DNA from: the human T2T-CHM13v2.0 reference genome, Homo sapiens
Strand: one strand, 5' to 3'
DNA length: 64,000 nucleotides
NCBI RefSeq assembly: GCF_009914755.1
Contig: NC_060930.1
The number at the start of each line of letters is the position of its first letter. Positions within the stretch are counted from its first letter, which is position 1. Positions 17,543 to 33,900 of this stretch are shown one piece after another. Below the pieces are notes generated by a model. That model had not been told where the DNA came from, did not search any database, and saw only the letters and a list, made by a program, of their open reading frames with translations. The position numbers and the translations under genes are program-made.

Positions 17543-18874
17543 ACCCCTTTATCATTGTATAGTGACTTTATTTGTCTCATAGTTTTTGTATCAAAATCAA
17601 TACTCCTTCTCTTTTTCCTGGTTTCCATTGGCATGGAATAACTCTTTCCAACTCTTTACTTTCAGCCTATGTGTGTCTTTATAGTTTAAGTGTGTTTCTT
17701 GTAGGCAACAGATCAATGGGTCTTGTTTTCTCCATTCATTCAGCCAGTCTATGTCTTTTGATTGGAGAGTTTAGTCCATATTTCCATTCAATGTATTATC
17801 GATAAGTAAAGACTTACTCCTGCCTTGTTATTTATTTGTTTTCTGGTTGTTTTGTGGTCTTCTTCTTTCTTTTCTTCCTGTCTTCCTTTAGGGAAGGTAG
17901 TTTGCTCTGGTGATATGATTTAGGTTTTTGCTTTTTATTTTTTATGTATCCAGTGTATGTTTTTAGGTTTGAGGTTACCATAAGGATTACAAATACTATT
18001 TTGTAACCCATTATTTTAACCTGGTAACACTGTTTGCATTAACAAACAAAAAACTAATAAAAACTCTACATCTTAACTTCATCCCCCCACTTTTTAACTT
18101 TTTGTTGTTTCTAATTTTATCTTATTTTTCTGACTGGTCTTGAAAAGTTGTAGTTACTATTTTTGATTGGTTTATCATTTATTCTTTCTACTTACACACC
18201 ACAGTTACAATGTTATCACACTTTGGGTTTTTCTGTGTACTTACTCTTAACAGTGAGTTTTTTACCTTTAGATGATTCTTTGTTGCTCATTAATGTCTGT
18301 TTCTTTCTGACCAAAGTACTCCCTTAAGCGTTTCTTATGGGACCAGTCTAGTGTTGATGAAATCCCTCAGCTTTTGTTTGTCTGGGGAAGTCTTTGTTTA
18401 TTCTTCATGTTTGAAGGATATTTTTGCTGGATATACTATTCTAGGGTAAAAGGTTTTTTCCCTTCAGCACTTTAACATATGTCATGTCACTCTCTCCTGG
18501 CTTGTAAGGTTTCCACTGAAAAATATACTGCCAGATGTATTGGAGCTCCATTGTATGTTATCTGTTTCTTTTCTCTTGCTGCTTTTAGGATCCTTTCTTT
18601 ACCCTTGTCCTGTGGGAGTTTGATTATTAAATGCCTTGAGGTAATCTTTGGGTTAAATTGGCCTGGTGTTCTATAACCTTCTTGTACTTGGATATAAATA
18701 TCTTTCTGTAGGTTTAGGAAGTTCTATGTTATTATCCCTTTCAACAAACTTTCTATTCCTATCTCTTTCTCTATCTCTTCTTTAAGGCCAATAACTCCTA
18801 GATTTGCCCTTAAGAAGTTATTTTCTAGATCCTGTGGGCATGCATCATTGTTTTTTATTTTTTGTCTCCTCTGA

Positions 18875-19200
<326 letters not shown>

Positions 19201-20890
19201 TTTGTTACTGTTAATAGTGCTGCAATGAACATACACTTGCATGTGTCTTTATGGTGGAATGATTTATATTCCTTTAGGTAAATATCCAGTAATGGGATTG
19301 GTGAGTCAAATGGTAGTTCTGTTTTTAGCTCTCTGAGGAATCACCACACTGCTGTCCACAGTGATTGAACTAATTTACACTCCTAACAAGTGTATAAGTT
19401 CCTTTTCTCCATAACCTCACCAACATCTATTATTTTTTTACTTTTTTGTAGCCATCCTGACTGGCAGATGATATCTCATCATGGTTTTGATTTTGCATTT
19501 CTCTAATGATCAGTGATAATTGAGGTTTTCTTTAACACGCTAGTTGGCTGTATGTATGTCTTTTTTGAAAAGTGTCTGTTCATGTCCTTTGCCCATTTTT
19601 TAATGGAGTGGGTTTTTTTTTTCCTGTAACTGTGTTTAAATTCCTTATAGATGCTAGATATTAGCCCCTTGTCAGATGCATAGTTTGCAAAAATTTTCTG
19701 TCATTTGGTAGATTGTCTGCCCTGTTGTTTATTTTGCTATGAAAAAGCTCTTAAATCCAATTTGTCCATTTTTGCTTTTGTTACAATTGCTTTTGGTGTC
19801 TTCATCATGAAATATTTGCCAGTTCCTATGTCCAGAATGGTATTGCCTAAGTTATCTTCAGGATTTTTATAATTTTGGGTTTTAACTCTTTAAACCATCT
19901 TAATTTTTGTACATAGTAAAAGGGGTCCAGTTACGATCTTCTGCATATGGCCAGCCAGTTATCCCAGCACCATTTATTGAATAGGGAGACCTTTCCCCAT
20001 TGCTTGTTTTTGTCAACTTTGTTGAAGATCAGATGGCTGTAGGTTTGTGGCCTTATTTTTGGGCTCTCTATTCTGTCCCACTGGTCTGTGTGTCTGCTTT
20101 TGTACCAGTACCATGCTGTTTTGGTCATGGTAGCCCTGTAGTTTGAAGTTAGGTAATGTGATGCCTCCACCTTTGTTCTTTTTGTTTAGGATTGCCTTGA
20201 CTACTCAGGCTTTTTGGTTCCATATGAATTTTAAGTTTTTTCTAGTTCTGTGAAAAATGTAATTGATAGTTTGATAGGAATAGCATTGAATCTATAAATT
20301 GCTTTGGGTAGTATGGCCACTTTAATGATATTGATTCTTCCTAGCCATGAGCATGGAAAGTTTTTCCATTTGTTTGTGTCATCTCTGATTTCTTTGAGCA
20401 GCGTTTGTGATTCTCATTGTAGAGATCCTTTACTTCCTTGGTTAGCTGCATTCCTGGGTATTTTATTCTTTTTTGTGGCAATTATGAATGGGATTGTGCT
20501 CCTGATTTGGCTCTTGGCTTGGCGACTGTGTATAGGAATGTTAGTGATTTTTGTACACTGATTTTGTCTCCTGAAACTTTGCTGAAATTATCAGATGAAG
20601 GACCTTTTGGGCTGAGGCTATGGGGTTTTCTAGATATAGAATCATACTGTCTGCAAACAAGGATAGTTTGACTTCCTCTCTTCCTATTTGGATGCCCTTT
20701 ATTATTTCTGTTGCCTGACTGCTGTGATCAGGACTTTCAACACTATATTGAATAGGAGTGGTGAGAAAGGGCTTCCTTATCCTGTGCCACTTTTCAAGGG
20801 GAATGCCTGCAGCTTTTGCCCATTCAGTATGATGTTGGCTGTGGGTTTGTTATAGTTGGCTCTTATTATTCTGAGTTATGTTCCTTCAAC
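19201..20890 (-). mobile_element. L1PA/PB-type ORF2 3' fragment
   Basis: [20 protein letters not shown]...[16 protein letters not shown] peptide. Confidence 0.9.
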
Positions 20891-21093
20891 ACAAGATGGG
20901 AAGCTCCCCAAATCCACATCTCTTGCTTGTGGGGGAGCCATCCTCAGCACATCGGCCCTACCCAACCCACAGTAGATACCAACATCCCTATGATGGATGA
21001 GCTATGGTGGAGTCCCCCCAACCCCAGAGTGAGAATTGGCCCCCGATGGGGACTTAGGGAGGGCTGAGTTGGCGAGCTGTGGGAGGTCATCAT

Positions 21094-21333
21094 CAGTGGG
21101 GCTCAAGCTCTCCCCTCCAAGCTCCAAGGATCTCTGCAGCCACAGGACGCATTCCTTCTCCACTTAGATCTTGTCTGTGAAGTATCCAATTGCCTTCCAT
21201 TTCTACTTGGTGTAGAATGTAGGGGGCAATGAATGAAACTGCCGCATATTGCAGAGGGTCCATGTCCAAGCACAGGCAGTTGTAACGGTAGTAGCCACAC
21301 CACCAGTACCTGTGGTTCCTGCTAGCCCCTCCA
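21094..21333 (-). pseudogene. Highly diverged MHC class I alpha-2 (exon 3) fossil
   Basis: Minus-strand translation [69 protein letters not shown] aligns almost ungapped to HLA [39 protein letters not shown]...[24 protein letters not shown]. Confidence 0.8.
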
Positions 21334-22639
21334 CTGCCCAGGCCAGACAGTGTCAGTCTGGCAGATGTACCCCCAAGGACTCTCCCTCATGGTGTCTGCT
21401 CCTCTGCCCCACCCTTCTGATCTCACAGCTTCTCCTTAGGTGACATTCACACTTTAGACAAAGTTGTTTGGTCCCCTGATTATGATCTCCTTTACTTGCT
21501 GTCAGCTCTGCCTGGGAAGAGGTCTATGCTCAGTTCCAGGATACATGGAAAAGGCAGTGGATGGGCAGGTACAGTCTTGGGCTTTACCATGAACTGTGTT
21601 GTTTAGTCAAGTTGTTTAACCTCCACTCTGTTCATCTTGTATATATGGGTGGGGGGTGAAGACTATGAGCCCACAGGTCTGCTTCTGTGCTCACTGTAAC
21701 AGATTCCTAAGTGCAAGTCCCTGAAACAGGATCACAGTACACAACATTAACATAAGAGGGTACATTATGCACGGTACAGCTTTCCTTGAGGTTCTAGAGA
21801 ATGCAAACCTTAACATTAACAAGTACCAAACCTCTGCTGAAAAATCCTCTAATGAATTTCAAGGTTAAATATAAATAAACTGTGGGATTGTTCTGCCTAG
21901 AGTAGCCACACCCTCCTCGGGGGTCCCACAGTCCACAGGCTCAAACTCCTCATCCAACAGTTACATGCTCCACCAACTTTCAGACTGTCTCTCCCAGTAG
22001 GCAGTGAGCCCCTAGAAGGCAGGGACTATGTAACGGTGACCTGGCAACTTTGTTGAACAGCTGCTCCTATCAGGATCAGTTCGTAAAAAGCCAAGCACTG
22101 CTCAGCCTTTTATTATGCCTCTTACTGATTTATGCCTTCATTTGGCATTCAAGAACTTGCTCCAATAGTGCCAAACAGTTGGGAGATATTTACTACAAAT
22201 TATTAAAACTGCAGTCTATCCTCTGAACCAACTGTGCTCAATCCCACCACACATCTTGCTGCTCCCTAACTTCTAGCTGCTTGGAAAGTCTCATTTTCTT
22301 CATCTACTCAAATCATACACATCCCTCGGGTTCCATGCAAAGTTCCATCTCATTCATGAAACTCCCTGACCACTGGGATATCTGGCCCATGAACTTGAGC
22401 AAACTATTTCTTCTGCATCTCATTTGGCATTTGAGGAGGGACTGTTCTCTGACGTCTCCTGGTATGCCTCACAGAGTCAGTAAAGTGTTTCCAGACCTAT
22501 AGGTACCACCCCATATTGTTAGCTCTTTGAGGATACACACTAGGTTATACTTTTCTGGTTCTCCACCCTAAGCACCCAAAAGGCAGATGGTAGGTACATC
22601 TCAGCTCCAAAGAGACTGCTGAAGACTGAATGAATTAAT

Positions 22640-22785
22640 GACACACAGAGAAACTGACCCTGGTGACCAGCCTGGGCCAGTTCACTCACGTGACTGTGGG
22701 GGCTGGCAAGTACATAATTTTCAGGTTAGACTGGCAGGCTGGAGACCCAGGGAAGAGCTGACACTGCAGCCTGAGGCCACAGGTA
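22640..22785. mobile_element. MLT2-like LTR fragment
   Basis: gactggcaggctggagacccagggaagagctga motif typical of MLT2. Confidence 0.5.
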
Positions 22786-22787
22786 GC

Positions 22788-23940
22788 AGTGTTGCTGGGT
22801 TGCTGCATTCTTTACTGTGAGATTTAGAAAAACTGTCATTATCATTATCCTAATATTGTCAAAACTTGTAGGCAGCCTATTTGCTGTTTTTGGTTCTTAT
22901 TGTTAGTGTGTTGTTATTCCTGTGGAAATCATAATTGTGCAGCGTTTTGATATCTATGAATTCAAAAACTTAAACAGAATATTAAGAACAAACTAATAAT
23001 AAAGTGACAAACTTTGGATACCTTTTTAACATTGTTTCTAAATATTGTAAACATGAATCTTCTGGACCTCAGAGGGAACAAGGAAGCAATGATATTAATA
23101 ATGAATCATAATCTGGAACACCTGATATTGTACACAAACTATAACAACTGGAAATGCCTTTGCAACTGCATAAGAGTTAGTTCAAAGAAACAATAATTTG
23201 CATTTCTAAAATTTAAAAAATCCCCAATAACTTTTGACAAAACTCACAGATGGCTTATTATTGCTAGCAATGTAAATATTGGATGCAAATCATGCTCAAA
23301 AGCTGTGTGAATAGCCAAAAGTGCTAAGCACATTCTGTCAGTGCTCATAATTCAAGGAAAACATTAGCAAAATTCAAAGAAAAAAACTTGAAAAATATTA
23401 AGAACAGCTTTGTACAATAAAGTATTTGAAAAAAGCAACAAACAGTGGAAAAATGCCATCAGATGTTAGTATACAGTTTACCCAAATGTGTAATTAAATA
23501 GAGCATTTTACATCATTAAGTAGAGGCTTTTAAACAATTATACATAGTGCATATCATTGCAGTATAGATTAATGGTTCTGCTGGTTGCAAACCATATTCT
23601 ACATAAGACAACTTTTGGAAAATTTATTAATCCAAGCAATAAATCATTATCAGTGAAGTGTCAACCATTTCACAAAATGTATTTAAGTTTTAGTTCCTTA
23701 AATACTAAATGTAAGACTTACAGGAAAATGGGTTTTTGTTGATCTGAGGAACTTATACCAACCTTACTCATCAGTGCCCAAGAAAAATAGCTTTAATGTG
23801 AGACAGTTGTATGATGGTACAGATAGTGCCAGTATATGCAACGAAGAAAGTTCAGGTTTCACCAAAATTTTGCAAAATTTCGGGGTTTAAAAATCTGTTT
23901 ATCGCAGAAGTCACATTGACTGTCTCACATTTACTCTTCC
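22788..23940 (+). mobile_element. hAT DNA transposon relic (Arthur1/KIAA1586-like transposase)
   Basis: Broken peptides WLIIASNVNIGCKSCSKAV, VANHI...IISEVSTIS, TDSASIC..ESSGFTKILQNF resemble hAT transposase motifs. Confidence 0.6.
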
Positions 23941-24139
23941 TCGTGTCCTGATCCTGCTGACTTGTCCACATGGGCAACTACGAAGCTGGCACAACTATAC
24001 TTCTTTGTTCACTTTGGTCACCACCATTTGTTCTGCTGTTGGGCTGCCCATGTGTAGGCAGGTTTCACGAAAATATCAGGTTCCCTAAGCAACATGAACT
24101 GGGAGGCTCAGAGAGGGATTTCCCTAGTCACTGACTTAC

Positions 24140-24402
24140 TGAGGGATTGACTCAAGATTCCCAGGCACTAGACAGAAGCAGTCGGGAAAGGAATCATTTC
24201 CTGATTGCCTGTGGGGGAAAAAGAAACTTTTTTGGATAGAACAGTCTGGATGGACTCTAACACAGTAAAAAGTGAAGGCAGTGCATTCTTCAGAAGGGCG
24301 GCAGATGGGGCACCACGCATCCCCACAGAGGGGCTGTCCTGCGGTCCTTGCAGGAGTTGCCAGGCTCCCAAAATCTCCTCCTGCTGCTATCCCCACCCTG
24401 CC
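24140..24402 (-). ncRNA. HCG18: Candidate HCG18 exon (or start of terminal exon)
   Basis: Minus-strand acceptor cctcttttcag|GCAGG and donor CTCA|gtaagt; unique sequence with no credible coding homology. Confidence 0.45.
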
Positions 24403-25889
24403 TGAAAAGAGGTGAGGAGGATGATGGGGAGGGAGTCAAACAGACTTGGGATAGGAGGAGTGAGTGCGCTGGTAAAACCAATTACTTAGCTAAACCTTTG
24501 GCTAAAACTCTAGGAAGGGAGGCACAAAATGGGAAAGTGTGGGTTTTTTTTTTTTGCTTCTCTAGGTGAAGGTTTAAATTAACTTCAGCATGGGTAAAAC
24601 TATTCTTTCCTTCTTTTTTCTCTCCCAGAGTTCTCACCACCTCCTCCCAGGCTAAATCCTTCATGTTGCAGGAGACAGAGAATCCCAGGTGAGACCCGGA
24701 CTTTTTCTCCTCCCTCCCTTCCTTTTTTCACCGTGTTCAGGATAAATTATCTTGGTTTTGTTTCTGGAGGGAAAAGGGCAGAGAGGCCCTGACTTGAATC
24801 TCAATCACATTTCTGCACACAGTACCTGAGGAGACAGAATAGCAGAGGGGTGGGAACAATTAACATTGCTTTATGGGCTTTAGAATGGAGAAAAAATAAT
24901 TCCCACTCTTTTTTCTTTTACCCAAATCCAACTTCAGTTTTCTCTCCAACTCTCTAAAACCACCACCAATACTATTATCACATCATGTGTAGCTACTTGG
25001 GGGGTGGTGAAAGGCTGAGTACGCATCATGTTCAGGTAGTAGGGTGTTAAACGAAATAGTTCCTCACAGCAATGCCCAAAGTCATCCTTGGTCACAATAA
25101 AGGAGAATAAAGGGAAAAAAGTATGATTATTGTATTAGATTGTGGGGTTGCAGGTGAGTTTTTTTTTTCCATTTTAAAAATTATTTTGTGGTTATAATGA
25201 TGATGTCAATTTTTAAAAAAATAAAAGAATGGAAAAAGTTGACTTGGGATTTCATAATGCAAAGAAAAAAGCAAAACAAAAAAGAACAACAAAAAGCAAA
25301 CAAAACAGATTTACATGTAATACCTAATTTAATCCCTTCATAACTCTGTGAAGTGGGTCAGTATTGACGGGTCAGCTTAACTAACAGATATTAGGAATGA
25401 GATCCAAAACAACCAGCCATGGTCGCACAGTTTGTGGAACCCAGGTTCTTTGACACTCAGCCCAGTGTTCCACCTGCAATGGCAACCTAAGTGAGGAGGG
25501 GGCCTCAGAGATGAGGTGGTCGACCCTTACAATGTTGATATTCTCCATGCTTTCTCAGAGCAAGTGGCTGAATCTCTTTCGTGACAGAGAACTCACCACC
25601 TACCAAGGCAGCCCATTTTATTAAGTCTAACTTTTAAAAAAGATACTTATGATGAGCACAATTCTGTCTCTCTCATACTCTATGGAAACGACCAATTTCT
25701 GACCTCTATGTCACAAAGAGTAAGTTTAGTTCTTCACATAATAGCCCTCCAAATATTTGAAATCTCTAGTCATAGCCAGATATATTGCATCAAAATAAAT
25801 GGCTATTTTCTGCAGGAGGGTTGGTCCAAATGTCCTAGCCTACCATTACCTGAAGCAAGAAGTCCTCCCTATTTTTTGAAGAACTATAT

Positions 25890-26550
25890 TTATTTGCTCA
25901 AATCATATTTATTAGGGGCCTGCTATCTGCCAGGCAGTGGGGATGCAGCGATACACAGGTCAAATAGGCATTTGGAGTGTGGAAGTGGGTGCCCACCCTA
26001 GTCGGGGAGCATCTCAGGATGTCCTCCTCAAGGAGATGACATGTCAACTGAGCCCAGAGGACAACAGGAGTTGACAGGGAAGAGTATTTCCTAGAGCGAG
26101 AAACTGGAGGCAGCTGTAGTGAGGTGCTGATGGGTTCTGGCCACCACCTGGACCACCTAGATTTGATGTTTCTCCACCCCCACTTAGTTGTGTGACCCTG
26201 GACAAGTTCCTCACCCACTACGTGCTTTAGAACCCTCACTGTGAAATGGGAGATGTGATAGGAATGTTGTGAGGATTGTTTGAGTGAATACATGCAAAGG
26301 ACTTAGGACAAGCCTGGCACATAGTTAATGCTCAATCAATGTTTTCTCTCGCAACTGGAGGGAAACAAGGTAGTGGGCAGGAAGGGGGAGTGCGCAGACA
26401 GTTCCTGCTAAGCCTTGTAAGTTACCATGGCCCAGCACTGTAACCAGAGAAGTGAGGATGAGACTTCCACTTTGAGAAAGGCCTCTCTGGCCGCAGCATG
26501 TAAAGGAATGGGAGGGGATTAGAATGTGTGTGCACGGACTAGGTGGGAGC
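25890..26550. mobile_element. L2 and MIR fragments
   Basis: MIR core (tgtgaccctggacaag...tgtgaaatggg...cctggcacatag) at ~26170-26345, flanked by L2 3'-end-like text. Confidence 0.55.

Positions 26551-29589: not shown

Positions 29590-33900
<4,311 letters not shown>

What the first reader, a model, noticed from the sequence alone, without database searches (positions are those of the whole stretch)
21094..21333. Cryptic fossil of a deeply diverged MHC class I gene (alpha-2 exon) inside the HCG18 region
Seen: the minus strand gives [32 protein letters not shown]. A 7-bp tandem duplication (ctacatt/ctacacc) explains the frameshift, followed by [37 protein letters not shown]. Removing the 7 bp restores the frame. 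The exon ends in phase 1 at a dead donor (ACT G|at instead of gt), and an HLA-intron-2-like ctgac...gggcag precedes it. Known: class I alpha-2 hallmarks are (A/G)YDG-D-Y, TK-KWE, C164 and WL--YLE-G-E-L. Many mismatches are single-base changes (TAC/GAC, CGT/GGT, AAC/GAC, TGC/TAC). Inference: it is far more diverged than HLA-A/B/C-derived pseudogenes and may be an ancient class I lineage lost in primates. I do not recall a named HLA pseudogene here. Some mammals carry atypical class I genes beside TRIM39 (pig SLA-11, from memory), so novelty needs checking.
Basis: partly seen in the sequence, partly recalled or inferred. Interest (0 to 1): 0.85.

Follow-up and report, generated by a model that had tools for sequence, protein, structure and literature searches.

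The report
Human relic of H2-T24-type gene
A lone, broken exon inside the non-coding gene HCG18 is the last remnant in humans of an old MHC class I gene that is still intact in mice (H2-T24), rats, horses, pigs, elephants and sloths but has no intact counterpart in primates.

Summary
The minus strand 21334→21092 reads as a broken MHC class I alpha-2 exon (exon 3).

It does not derive from HLA-A/B/C-type genes. A search of 1.84 billion proteins with the 3' half found a distinct class I lineage (best E 5e-13). Named members include mouse H2-T24 and rat RT1-T24-4, with close relatives in Afrotheria, Xenarthra, Laurasiatheria and Glires. None of the 48 named close relatives is from a primate.

- **Homology:** both reading frames and about 165 and 125 bases of the flanking introns match this lineage.
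- **Tree:** the relic sits inside the T24 clade, 100/98 without one long row. An AU test rejects a place with classical-type genes, p 0.027.
- **Extent:** no other exon of the gene is found in the window. No other T24-like copy is found in the human genome. The DNA is single copy.
- **Lesions:** a 14-15 codon deletion including Cys101, a frame shift, two stop codons and a dead splice donor. An L1-type repeat starts about 200 bases downstream.

I found no mention of it in HLA nomenclature or the papers I could search.

The parts
21092..21334 (-). Relic of class I exon 3 (alpha-2 domain), H2-T24/RT1-T24 lineage. It is read in two frames. About 73 codons can be aligned.
   Evidence: tblastn of T24-lineage proteins: P0001 at E 5e-17 for the 3' frame and 1e-7 for the 5' frame. 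Own T24 alpha-2 profile scores the read-through at 65-71 bits. Trees.
21219..21320 (-). 5' part, 34 codons in frame A. It covers the degraded (G)YDG-D-Y region and the well-kept LDMDPLQY stretch.
   Evidence: The first 17 codons have 5 residues identical to the consensus and 10 one base away. No shuffle of 5000 came as close.
21321..21333 (-). Site of an internal deletion of about 14-15 codons. The start of exon 3, including Cys101, is missing. An AG that could be the old acceptor lies at 21335-21334, with an alternative at 21330-21329.
   Evidence: Frameshift-aware alignment to P0004 and P0011, two records that read through intron 2 into exon 3.
21212..21218 (-). Seven extra bases ('attctac'), the second half of an imperfect tandem repeat. 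Leaving them out joins frame A to frame B.
   Evidence: This model scores 70.8 bits against 69.4 for the rival model, so it is favoured only slightly.
21092..21211 (-). 3' part, 40 codons in frame B. It holds TKxKW, Cys164 and the WL..(Y)LE.GGESL stretch. Two stop codons (21205-21203 and 21166-21164) and a 2-codon deletion lie within it. The exon ends at G 21094, and 'at' at 21093-21092 stands where the GT donor should be.
   Evidence: PDB, E 2.7e-4, residues 143-184. (Pfam MHC_I, 11.4 bits, profile positions 143-179 of 179)..
21335..21499 (-). Remnant of the 3' end of intron 2.
   Evidence: Read-through records P0004 (to 21499) and P0011 (to 21423) align here in continuity with the exon.
20969..21091 (-). 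Remnant of the 5' end of intron 3.
   Evidence: Read-through parts of P0001 (black rhinoceros), P0004, P0007 and P0011 align here.
20300..20892 (-). L1-type interspersed repeat that interrupts the old intron 3 about 200 bases after the exon. It is not part of the class I gene.
   Evidence: More than 10,000 first-look candidates in the human genome. The 39 scored copies elsewhere are 83-87% identical and start at query base 49-59. A weak reverse-transcriptase match lies at about 20705-20854.

Best explanation
This is the decayed remnant of exon 3, with stubs of introns 2 and 3, of the human counterpart of the H2-T24/RT1-T24 class I lineage. That lineage is an old eutherian gene of the kappa block of the MHC.

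In species that keep it, the protein looks like a peptide-presenting class I heavy chain. It retains all eight residues that hold peptide termini, the N86 glycosylation site and both alpha-2 cysteines. It also carries a lineage-specific insert of 8-13 residues between alpha-1 and alpha-2.

On the line to humans the gene lost its function and has since drifted without constraint. All other exons are gone or unrecognisable. The surviving exon has:
- a 14-15 codon deletion that removes Cys101,
- a frame shift,
- a 2-codon deletion,
- two stop codons,
- GT changed to AT at the donor,
- an L1-type repeat inserted about 200 bases downstream.

It encodes nothing today. It is carried passively, on the same strand, inside the long last exon of the lncRNA HCG18.

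Shown here: the homology, the lineage, the lesions, single-copy status, and the absence of other exons and of other human copies. Inferred: decay in place (not a moved copy), early loss in the primate stem, peptide presentation by the ancestral protein, and absence of present function.
For: - **Library search:** the 3' half found 13 proteins at E <= 1e-3 and 2 at E <= 1e-10. The best are 60-63% identical and also match the 5' frame.
- **Names:** with horse protein P0005 as query, 50 of the 120 listed rows are at least 56% identical. 48 of them carry names, among them mouse 'histocompatibility 2, T region locus 24' and rat 'RT1 class I, locus T24, gene 4'. Classical class I of primates and other mammals comes at 38-54%.
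- **tblastn into the window:** the only matches better than E 0.08 lie at 21499-20969 on the minus strand.
- **Introns:** three records that read through introns align across both exon borders, so this is genomic DNA and not a processed copy.
- **Profiles:** the T24 alpha-2 profile (34 rows) gives 64.7-70.8 bits. A profile of 34 non-T24 rows gives 28.1-32.9 bits. The best of 1000 shuffles gives 7.9 and 3.8 bits.
- **Tree of 70 alpha-2 rows:** T24 plus relic has support 94/96. Holding the relic with classical-type rows costs 37.8 log-likelihood units, AU p 0.027. Without the long row P0007, T24 plus relic is 100/98.
- **Other exons:** a six-frame scan of the whole window (3424 open pieces) with a full-length T24 profile finds only the two exon-3 pieces, at E 7.7e-8 and 6.6e-6. 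The next best is E 0.74.
- **Human genome:** the relic is the only hit at 60% identity. The best alpha-1 match elsewhere is 42% and the best alpha-2 match is 46%. The 621-base DNA matches only itself.
- **Codons:** 43 of 73 equal the lineage consensus, 27 are one base away and 3 are two bases away.
- **Retained residues in intact members:** Y7, Y59, Y84, N86, C101, T143, K146, W147, Y159, C164 and Y171 are kept in 26-28 of 28 rows.
- **Transcript:** HCG18's last exon, 19623-24825 on the minus strand, covers the relic (hub annotation).
Against: - Pfam's own MHC_I model gives only 11.4 bits (E 0.25, cut-off 28.3) on the unjoined 3' piece and nothing on the other pieces.
- The 5' frame alone finds nothing in the PDB.
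- Inside the T24 clade the relic does not sit with rabbit and rodents, as the species tree predicts. It sits in a 12-row set of Laurasiatheria plus sloth, support 99/90. This rests on 92 columns and a long end branch of 0.53-0.68, and may reflect fast evolution in Glires, but I have not explained it.
- Synteny was not tested, because no genome of another mammal was within reach.
- In mouse, H2-T24 is the centromeric gene of the H2-T cluster (PMC2375909, passages). From memory that lies on the other side of Trim39/Rpp21 from the human relic.
- 'Lost in primates' rests on annotated proteins only. Primate pseudogenes would not appear in those libraries.
Confidence: 0.88

Rival explanations
1. The relic belongs to the T24 lineage but did not decay where the gene once stood. 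A piece of the gene was moved here from another part of the kappa block, for example from near GNL1 where mouse H2-T24 lies. The move could have been a segmental rearrangement or could have come with the neighbouring L1.
For: Only one exon with short intron stubs survives, and an L1-type repeat abuts it. Mouse H2-T24 sits at the centromeric end of the H2-T cluster (PMC2375909, passages). From memory, that is not between Trim26 and Trim39.
Against: The upstream flank 21560-22400 is single copy and shows no sign of a junction. The relic lies 5' of the L1 piece on the same strand, which does not fit the usual 3' transduction. Rodent MHCs are known to be rearranged (established knowledge). No second T24-like trace exists elsewhere in the human genome.
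Confidence: 0.1
2. It is a very diverged fragment of a primate HLA-type gene, a by-product of the duplications that made HLA-L, HLA-N or the alpha-block pseudogenes. Its likeness to T24 proteins would then be convergence or retained ancestral residues.
For: HLA-L lies about 22 kb away and HLA-N about 62 kb away (hub annotation). The general class I profile also matches, at 28-33 bits.
Against: The T24 profile scores about twice as high, 65-71 bits. The relic is 59-62% identical to T24 rows, against 16 of 41 residues identical to HLA-B in the part that aligns at all. The AU test rejects a place with classical-type rows, p 0.027. There is no DNA match to any HLA gene in the human genome. The intron flanks match T24-type introns.
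Confidence: 0.02
3. The segment has been taken over for a present function, as a sequence or structure element of the HCG18 lncRNA, and is kept for that reason.
For: It lies on the transcribed strand inside HCG18's last exon (hub annotation).
Against: At least 33 of 219 bases differ from the lineage consensus, and there are several indels and stops. This is the pattern of free drift. No Rfam family matches in 19000-25000. Constraint among primates could not be measured here.
Confidence: 0.03

Closest known systems
Mouse H2-T24 and rat RT1-T24 genes (class Ib)
   Same: Same lineage by tree and profile. They share the motifs LD.D..QY, TK.KW, YLEKEC.LWL and GG..(L/F).RT. All lie in the kappa block between TRIM26 and ABCF1, as that block is defined in PMC4753418 and PMC6636196 (passages).
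   Different: The rodent genes are intact and widely transcribed (PMC2375909, passages), though their function is untested (PMC3030590, passage). The human copy is one broken exon. Within the clade the relic does not group with the rodent rows. The position within the kappa block seems to differ, but that is recalled and not tested.
Named HLA class I gene fragments such as HLA-N and HLA-Z
   Same: A partial class I pseudogene in the human MHC. HLA-Z is likewise a very short piece, 88 bp, inside a non-coding RNA gene (PMC9772353, passage).
   Different: The relic is not in the 2026 list of HLA genes (PMC12936402, Table 1). As far as I know (not tested here), the named fragments belong to the primate HLA radiation. 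This one belongs to a lineage with no other human member.
Pig SLA-11
   Same: A pig protein (P0021, UniRef A0A8D1HQ12_PIG) is a full-length member of the lineage, 72% identical to horse. SLA-11 is counted among the classical-cluster loci and reported functional in Babraham pigs (PMC13584530 and PMC11496355, one passage each).
   Different: I could not show that P0021 is SLA-11, nor where it lies relative to TRIM39. The link remains a recollection.

Membership tests
MHC class I heavy chain, alpha-2 domain (Pfam MHC_I, PF00129) | Profile match above the curated cut-off | tested here: not met
   Pfam on the unjoined pieces gives at best 11.4 bits, E 0.25, against a cut-off of 28.3. The match is in exact register, profile positions 143-179 of 179. 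The joined read-through could not be handed to the Pfam tool.
MHC class I heavy chain, alpha-2 domain (Pfam MHC_I, PF00129) | Significant match of the read-through to a class I alpha-2 profile that holds no T24 sequence | tested here: met
   Own profile of 34 classical-type and distant rows gives 28.1 bits (E 1e-7 among 1001 sequences) and 32.9 bits for the variant without X. The best of 1000 shuffles gives 3.8 bits.
MHC class I heavy chain, alpha-2 domain (Pfam MHC_I, PF00129) | Hallmark residues: C101-C164 disulphide, T143, K146, W147, Y159, Y171 (list recalled from textbook knowledge) | tested here: inconclusive
   T143, K146, W147 and C164 are present. Y159 is now TAA, Y171 is S, and C101 is deleted. 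This is as expected for a pseudogene.
MHC class I heavy chain, alpha-2 domain (Pfam MHC_I, PF00129) | Exon 3 bounded by introns and ending in phase 1 after ...T | tested here: met
   The exon ends 'act g|at' at 21094. Both flanks align to read-through intron sequence of P0001, P0004 and P0011.
H2-T24 / RT1-T24 lineage | Falls inside the clade of named T24 genes and their eutherian relatives | tested here: met
   Support 94/96 with all 70 rows, and 100/98 without P0007. AU p 0.027 against the classical-type alternative.
H2-T24 / RT1-T24 lineage | Higher score on the lineage's own profile than on a general class I profile | tested here: met
   64.7-70.8 bits against 28.1-32.9 bits.
H2-T24 / RT1-T24 lineage | Insert of 8-13 residues between alpha-1 and alpha-2, present in 28 of 28 intact members | not testable with these tools
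   The insert precedes exon 3. No trace of exon 2 survives in the window.
H2-T24 / RT1-T24 lineage | Orthologous position (shared neighbours) with T24-type genes of other mammals | not tested
   No other mammalian genome was within reach. The human relic lies between HLA-L/TRIM26 and TRIM39 (hub annotation). Mouse H2-T24 lies at the centromeric end of H2-T (PMC2375909, passages).
Known human HLA pseudogenes (HLA-H, J, K, L, N, P, R, S, T, U, V, W, X, Y, Z) | Being, or being a DNA-level copy of, one of the named loci | tested here: not met
   The 621-base segment matches only itself in the human genome at E <= 0.01. RefSeq annotates only HCG18 here (hub). PMC12936402 Table 1 names no locus here.

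The most novel reading that the evidence does not exclude
The relic marks the original seat, between TRIM26 and TRIM39, of a single-copy, peptide-presenting class I gene that was already in the kappa block of the last common ancestor of placental mammals. That gene has been kept as a one-to-one orthologue in all four superorders. It was lost early on the primate line, and perhaps independently in carnivores and bats, which are also missing from the close hits.

If so, this would be the oldest orthologous MHC-linked class I gene known in placentals. It would settle the dispute over whether the kappa block is ancestral or arose stepwise in favour of an ancestral block. It would also point to an unstudied conserved antigen-presenting molecule that humans lack.
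Probability: 0.4. Interest if true: 0.65.

Novelty: new member of a known kind. Interest (0 to 1): 0.5.

Why it matters
Class I genes turn over so fast that orthology is rarely traceable between mammalian orders. Here one lineage (H2-T24/RT1-T24) appears as close relatives in Afrotheria, Xenarthra, Laurasiatheria and Glires, and its trace is still readable in the human kappa block.

That gives a fixed point for the open question of how the class I duplication blocks arose:
- all blocks ancestral, the view credited to Kumanovics 2003 in PMC6636196;
- stepwise origin, PMC4753418;
- kappa and beta blocks ancestral, PMC6636196.

It also shows that humans lack a conserved, apparently peptide-binding class I molecule whose function is untested even in rodents (PMC3030590, passage).

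For annotation, it adds an unnamed class I fragment to the human MHC, inside the much-studied lncRNA HCG18. It has no consequence for HLA typing or for protein-coding content.

Tried and rejected
- **Pfam on separate pieces:** nothing. On a 40-residue piece, only a sub-threshold MHC_I match.
- **phmmer of the 5' frame against the PDB:** nothing.
- **Word-indexed protein search for longer relatives:** nothing, because too few exact 5-residue words are shared. The index-free search gave the key hits.
- **Rfam on 19000-25000:** nothing.
- **First tree:** I had cut the 5' half in the wrong frame, so half of the relic row was noise. It still fell in the T24 clade, but I discard that run and rely.
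- **First codon count:** it was anchored wrongly, because a motif was not found in the consensus. Discarded and redone.
- stopped on a parsing error after printing the two read-throughs. Redone.
- **Weak alpha-1-like tblastn hits:** those at 32.2-32.8 kb (E 0.6-1.8, on both strands) and at 23413-23360 (E 2.9) were looked at. The second is AT-rich, low-complexity sequence, and none reaches E 0.7 on the full-length profile. I reject them as chance.
- **Naming the short records:** P0004, P0008, P0009, P0011 and P0131-P0133 come from unnamed sources. P0007 did not appear in that search.
- **Papers not held:** the rat MHC paper (Hurt 2004) is not held, so I saw nothing of it.
- **SLA-11:** most hits of the search term were allele names such as SLA-1*15, so they were false hits.
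- **Searches for a prior description of a class I relic in HCG18 found none:** (0 papers; 7 papers, none relevant by title or abstract; 1 paper, irrelevant). Searches were term searches inside three MHC reviews.
- **Limits of those searches:** subscription-journal papers, for example the 1999-2006 HLA and SLA sequence papers, were not searchable. I opened no supplementary files.

Full report
**1. The observation**

Read on the minus strand, 21386→21093 is an open frame of 97 codons. The frame that starts at 21211 gives the second peptide, with TAG at 21205-21203 and TAA at 21166-21164.

- The two frames meet at an imperfect 7-base tandem repeat, at 21222-21209.
- The exon-like stretch ends 'act g|at' at 21094, and 'ctgac...tgggcag' ends at 21334.

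**2. Is it more than chance?**

The first tests were mixed.

- The 3' half, with X at the two stops, matched MHC class I chains of the PDB at E 2.7e-4. The match was in exact register with residues 143-184, and 364 distinct chains matched at E ≤ 10.
- Pfam's MHC_I model gave only 11.4 bits (E 0.25, cut-off 28.3), though at profile positions 143-179 of 179.
- The 5' frame alone found nothing in the PDB or Pfam.
- The word-indexed protein search found nothing.

The index-free search of 1.84 billion representative proteins settled it. It returned 13 proteins at E ≤ 1e-3 and two at E ≤ 1e-10. The best were P0001 (E 5.2e-13, 60% identity) and P0005 (63% identity).

**3. What lineage?**

I used P0005 (horse, 362 residues, full-length class I) as query. 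3858 proteins matched at E ≤ 1e-5, and the best 120 were listed.

- Fifty of the 120 rows are at least 56% identical to P0005, and 48 of those carry a name.
- The named species are horse, donkey, black rhinoceros, camel, hippopotamus, deer, muntjac, pig, peccary, whales, hedgehog, sloth, manatee, elephant, aardvark, golden mole, elephant shrew, rabbit, hare, squirrels, beaver, guinea pig, chinchilla and many murid and cricetid rodents.
- Three names identify the lineage: mouse 'histocompatibility 2, T region locus 24', mole rat 'Histocompatibility 2, T region locus 24' and rat 'RT1 class I, locus T24, gene 4'.
- None of the 48 is a primate. Primate rows first appear at 49-53% identity and are classical HLA, Mamu or Patr-type chains.
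- No carnivore is among the 50 close rows. The only bat row, a fused Saccopteryx model at 47%, has classical-type alpha-2 domains in my tree.

**4. Anatomy of the relic**

tblastn of nine of these proteins against the window gave, below E 0.08, only hits between 21499 and 20969 on the minus strand. Examples are P0001 at E 5e-17 (3' frame) and 1e-7 (5' frame), and P0004 at E 6e-19.

Three records are gene models or open frames that run through introns: P0001 (rhinoceros), P0004 and P0011. P0011 is unnamed, and its alpha-2 is identical to that of pig P0021. Their intron-derived parts align to the human flanks.

- Intron 2 aligns up to about 21499, and intron 3 down to about 20969.
- The relic is therefore genomic DNA of the gene and not a processed copy.
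- The read-through '...T-G-N-D-(L/F)-P-Q' implies a donor g|gtaatgac where human has g|atgatgac.

A frameshift-aware alignment shows the lesions:

- a gap of 14-15 codons right after the acceptor, removing the start of alpha-2 with Cys101;
- a frame change between 21218 and 21176;
- a 2-codon gap, in the model that keeps the TKxKW motif;
- two stop codons;
- the dead donor.

A single-base-insertion model scores 69.4 bits. On a general class I profile the scores are 32.9 and 28.3 bits. Either single frame alone gives 31-35 bits on the T24 profile, so both halves contribute.

At the codon level, 43 of 73 aligned codons encode the consensus residue of 34 T24 rows. Another 27 are one base from doing so, 3 are two bases away and none is three. 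In 5000 codon shuffles the mean number identical was 4.3 and the maximum was 13. The 17 most degraded 5' codons are closer to the consensus than any of the 5000 shuffles.

**5. Tree**

From the 146 alpha-2 domains found in 128 stored proteins, I chose 69 domains from 60 proteins. I dropped most of the near-identical primate classical rows and some rodent rows. I then added the relic, giving 92 kept columns.

- The T24 rows plus the relic form one side of a branch, support 94/96.
- The best tree that holds the relic with the 23 classical-type rows is 37.8 log-likelihood units worse, AU p 0.027.
- The relic's nearest row was P0007, an unnamed and equally long branch. As the tool advises, I rebuilt without it. 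T24 plus relic then has 100/98.
- Against expectation, the relic does not join rabbit and rodents. It lies in a 12-row set of Laurasiatheria plus sloth, support 99/90. With 92 columns, a long end branch and fast-evolving rodent rows I do not read this as evidence against orthology, but it is unexplained.

**6. Is anything else left of the gene?**

- A full-length T24 profile (28 proteins, 347 positions) was run over all 3424 open pieces of at least 12 codons, in six frames of the window. It found only the two exon-3 pieces, at E 7.7e-8 and 6.6e-6. The next best was E 0.74.
- Pfam on six frames of 18000-26000 found only L1 domains.
- In the whole human genome, P0005 finds the relic at 60% identity and otherwise only the known class I and class I-like loci. 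The best alpha-1 match is 42%. The best alpha-2 match is 46%, at a chromosome 1 place that I take to be MR1 from memory.
- The relic's 621 bases match nothing but themselves.
- Downstream, from about 20892, begins an L1-type repeat. It has more than 10,000 first-look candidates, and the 39 scored copies elsewhere are 83-87% identical.
- Upstream, 21560-22400 is single copy.

**7. What the living gene looks like**

- In 28 intact members, Y7, Y59, Y84, T143, K146, W147, Y159 and Y171 are kept in 26-28 rows. This list of residues that hold peptide termini is recalled from textbook knowledge.
- N86, C101 and C164 are kept in 27-28 rows.
- All 28 carry 8-13 extra residues between alpha-1 and alpha-2.
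- Among the best 60 of 512 PDB matches to mouse H2-T24, all are classical-type chains or constructs. No structure of this lineage is apparent.
- Mouse H2-T24 is widely transcribed and was called possibly among the oldest H2-T genes (PMC2375909, passages).
- The function of the rat genes is untested (PMC3030590, passage).

**8. History, by inference**

The minimum of 33 changed bases in 219, counting only changes that alter the residue, plus several indels, points to long neutral drift. By rough reckoning from generally accepted primate substitution rates (my own estimate, not a computation here), that means tens of millions of years. This fits a loss early on the primate line and the absence of primates among the close relatives.

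The relic lies in the kappa block as defined in PMC4753418 and PMC6636196 (passages). It is in the same orientation as HCG18 and inside HCG18's last exon (hub annotation), so it is transcribed as a passenger.

**9. Is it known?**

- The 2026 HLA nomenclature table lists no locus here (PMC12936402, Table 1 as shown in passages).
- A 2025 survey of primate MHC genes names only MHC-L, -N and -E in the kappa block, and holds neither 'T24' nor 'HCG18' (PMC12674619, term searches).
- A 2022 review of the HLA super-locus does not mention HCG18 (PMC9772353).
- Full-text searches for HCG18 with class I terms, and for H2-T24 with RT1-T24, orthologues or SLA-11, found nothing relevant.
- I could not search subscription journals, GENCODE or IPD.

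**Verdict**

It is a new member of a known kind (HLA-region class I gene fragments), and is notable because it belongs to a pan-eutherian lineage that humans otherwise lack.

Noticed in passing
Proteins P0005, P0015-P0057 (not in the window): All 28 intact T24-lineage proteins carry an insert of 8-13 residues exactly at the alpha-1/alpha-2 junction, after the N-x-S/T site. They also keep all eight peptide-terminus-binding residues. I know of no description of this insert. Whether it is an extended exon 2 or a small extra exon is open.
   Followed up: partly
table: No carnivore and no bat with a T24-type alpha-2 is among the 50 close relatives of the horse protein. The lineage may have been lost more than once. 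Bats are reported to have an empty kappa block (PMC4753418, passages).
   Followed up: no
P0007 (unnamed, 107 aa), aligned to window 21232-20978: This open frame runs through a decayed copy of the same exon and intron 3 in some other genome. It has lost Cys164 but has none of the human lesions: no stops, no 7 extra bases, and the donor is intact. On the tree it is the relic's nearest row (95/70), and both branches are long. It may be an independently decaying copy in a related species.
   Followed up: partly
window 18300-18810 and 20705-20854, minus strand: L1 ORF1 domains (Transposase_22 at E 1e-14, Tnp_22_dsRBD at E 1e-9) lie downstream of an L1 reverse-transcriptase trace on the same strand. 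That is the wrong order for a single element, so at least two L1 pieces are nested or adjacent here, inside HCG18's last exon.
   Followed up: no
G000:C6:30215621-30215734 (window 83621-83734, outside the window): An alpha-3 fragment 63% identical to the horse protein. It coincides with the annotated HLA-N fragment and is not part of the relic.
   Followed up: no
window 32171-32413 (+) and 32737-32829 (-): Weak alpha-1-like tblastn hits on opposite strands, E 0.6-1.8. They are not supported by the full-length profile, E 12. Probably chance.
   Followed up: partly
Trees: Inside the T24 clade, sloth groups with Laurasiatheria and the relic joins them, while Glires and Afrotheria stay outside. 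This departs from the species tree. It could be a rate artefact, or it could hint at an old duplication within the lineage.
   Followed up: no
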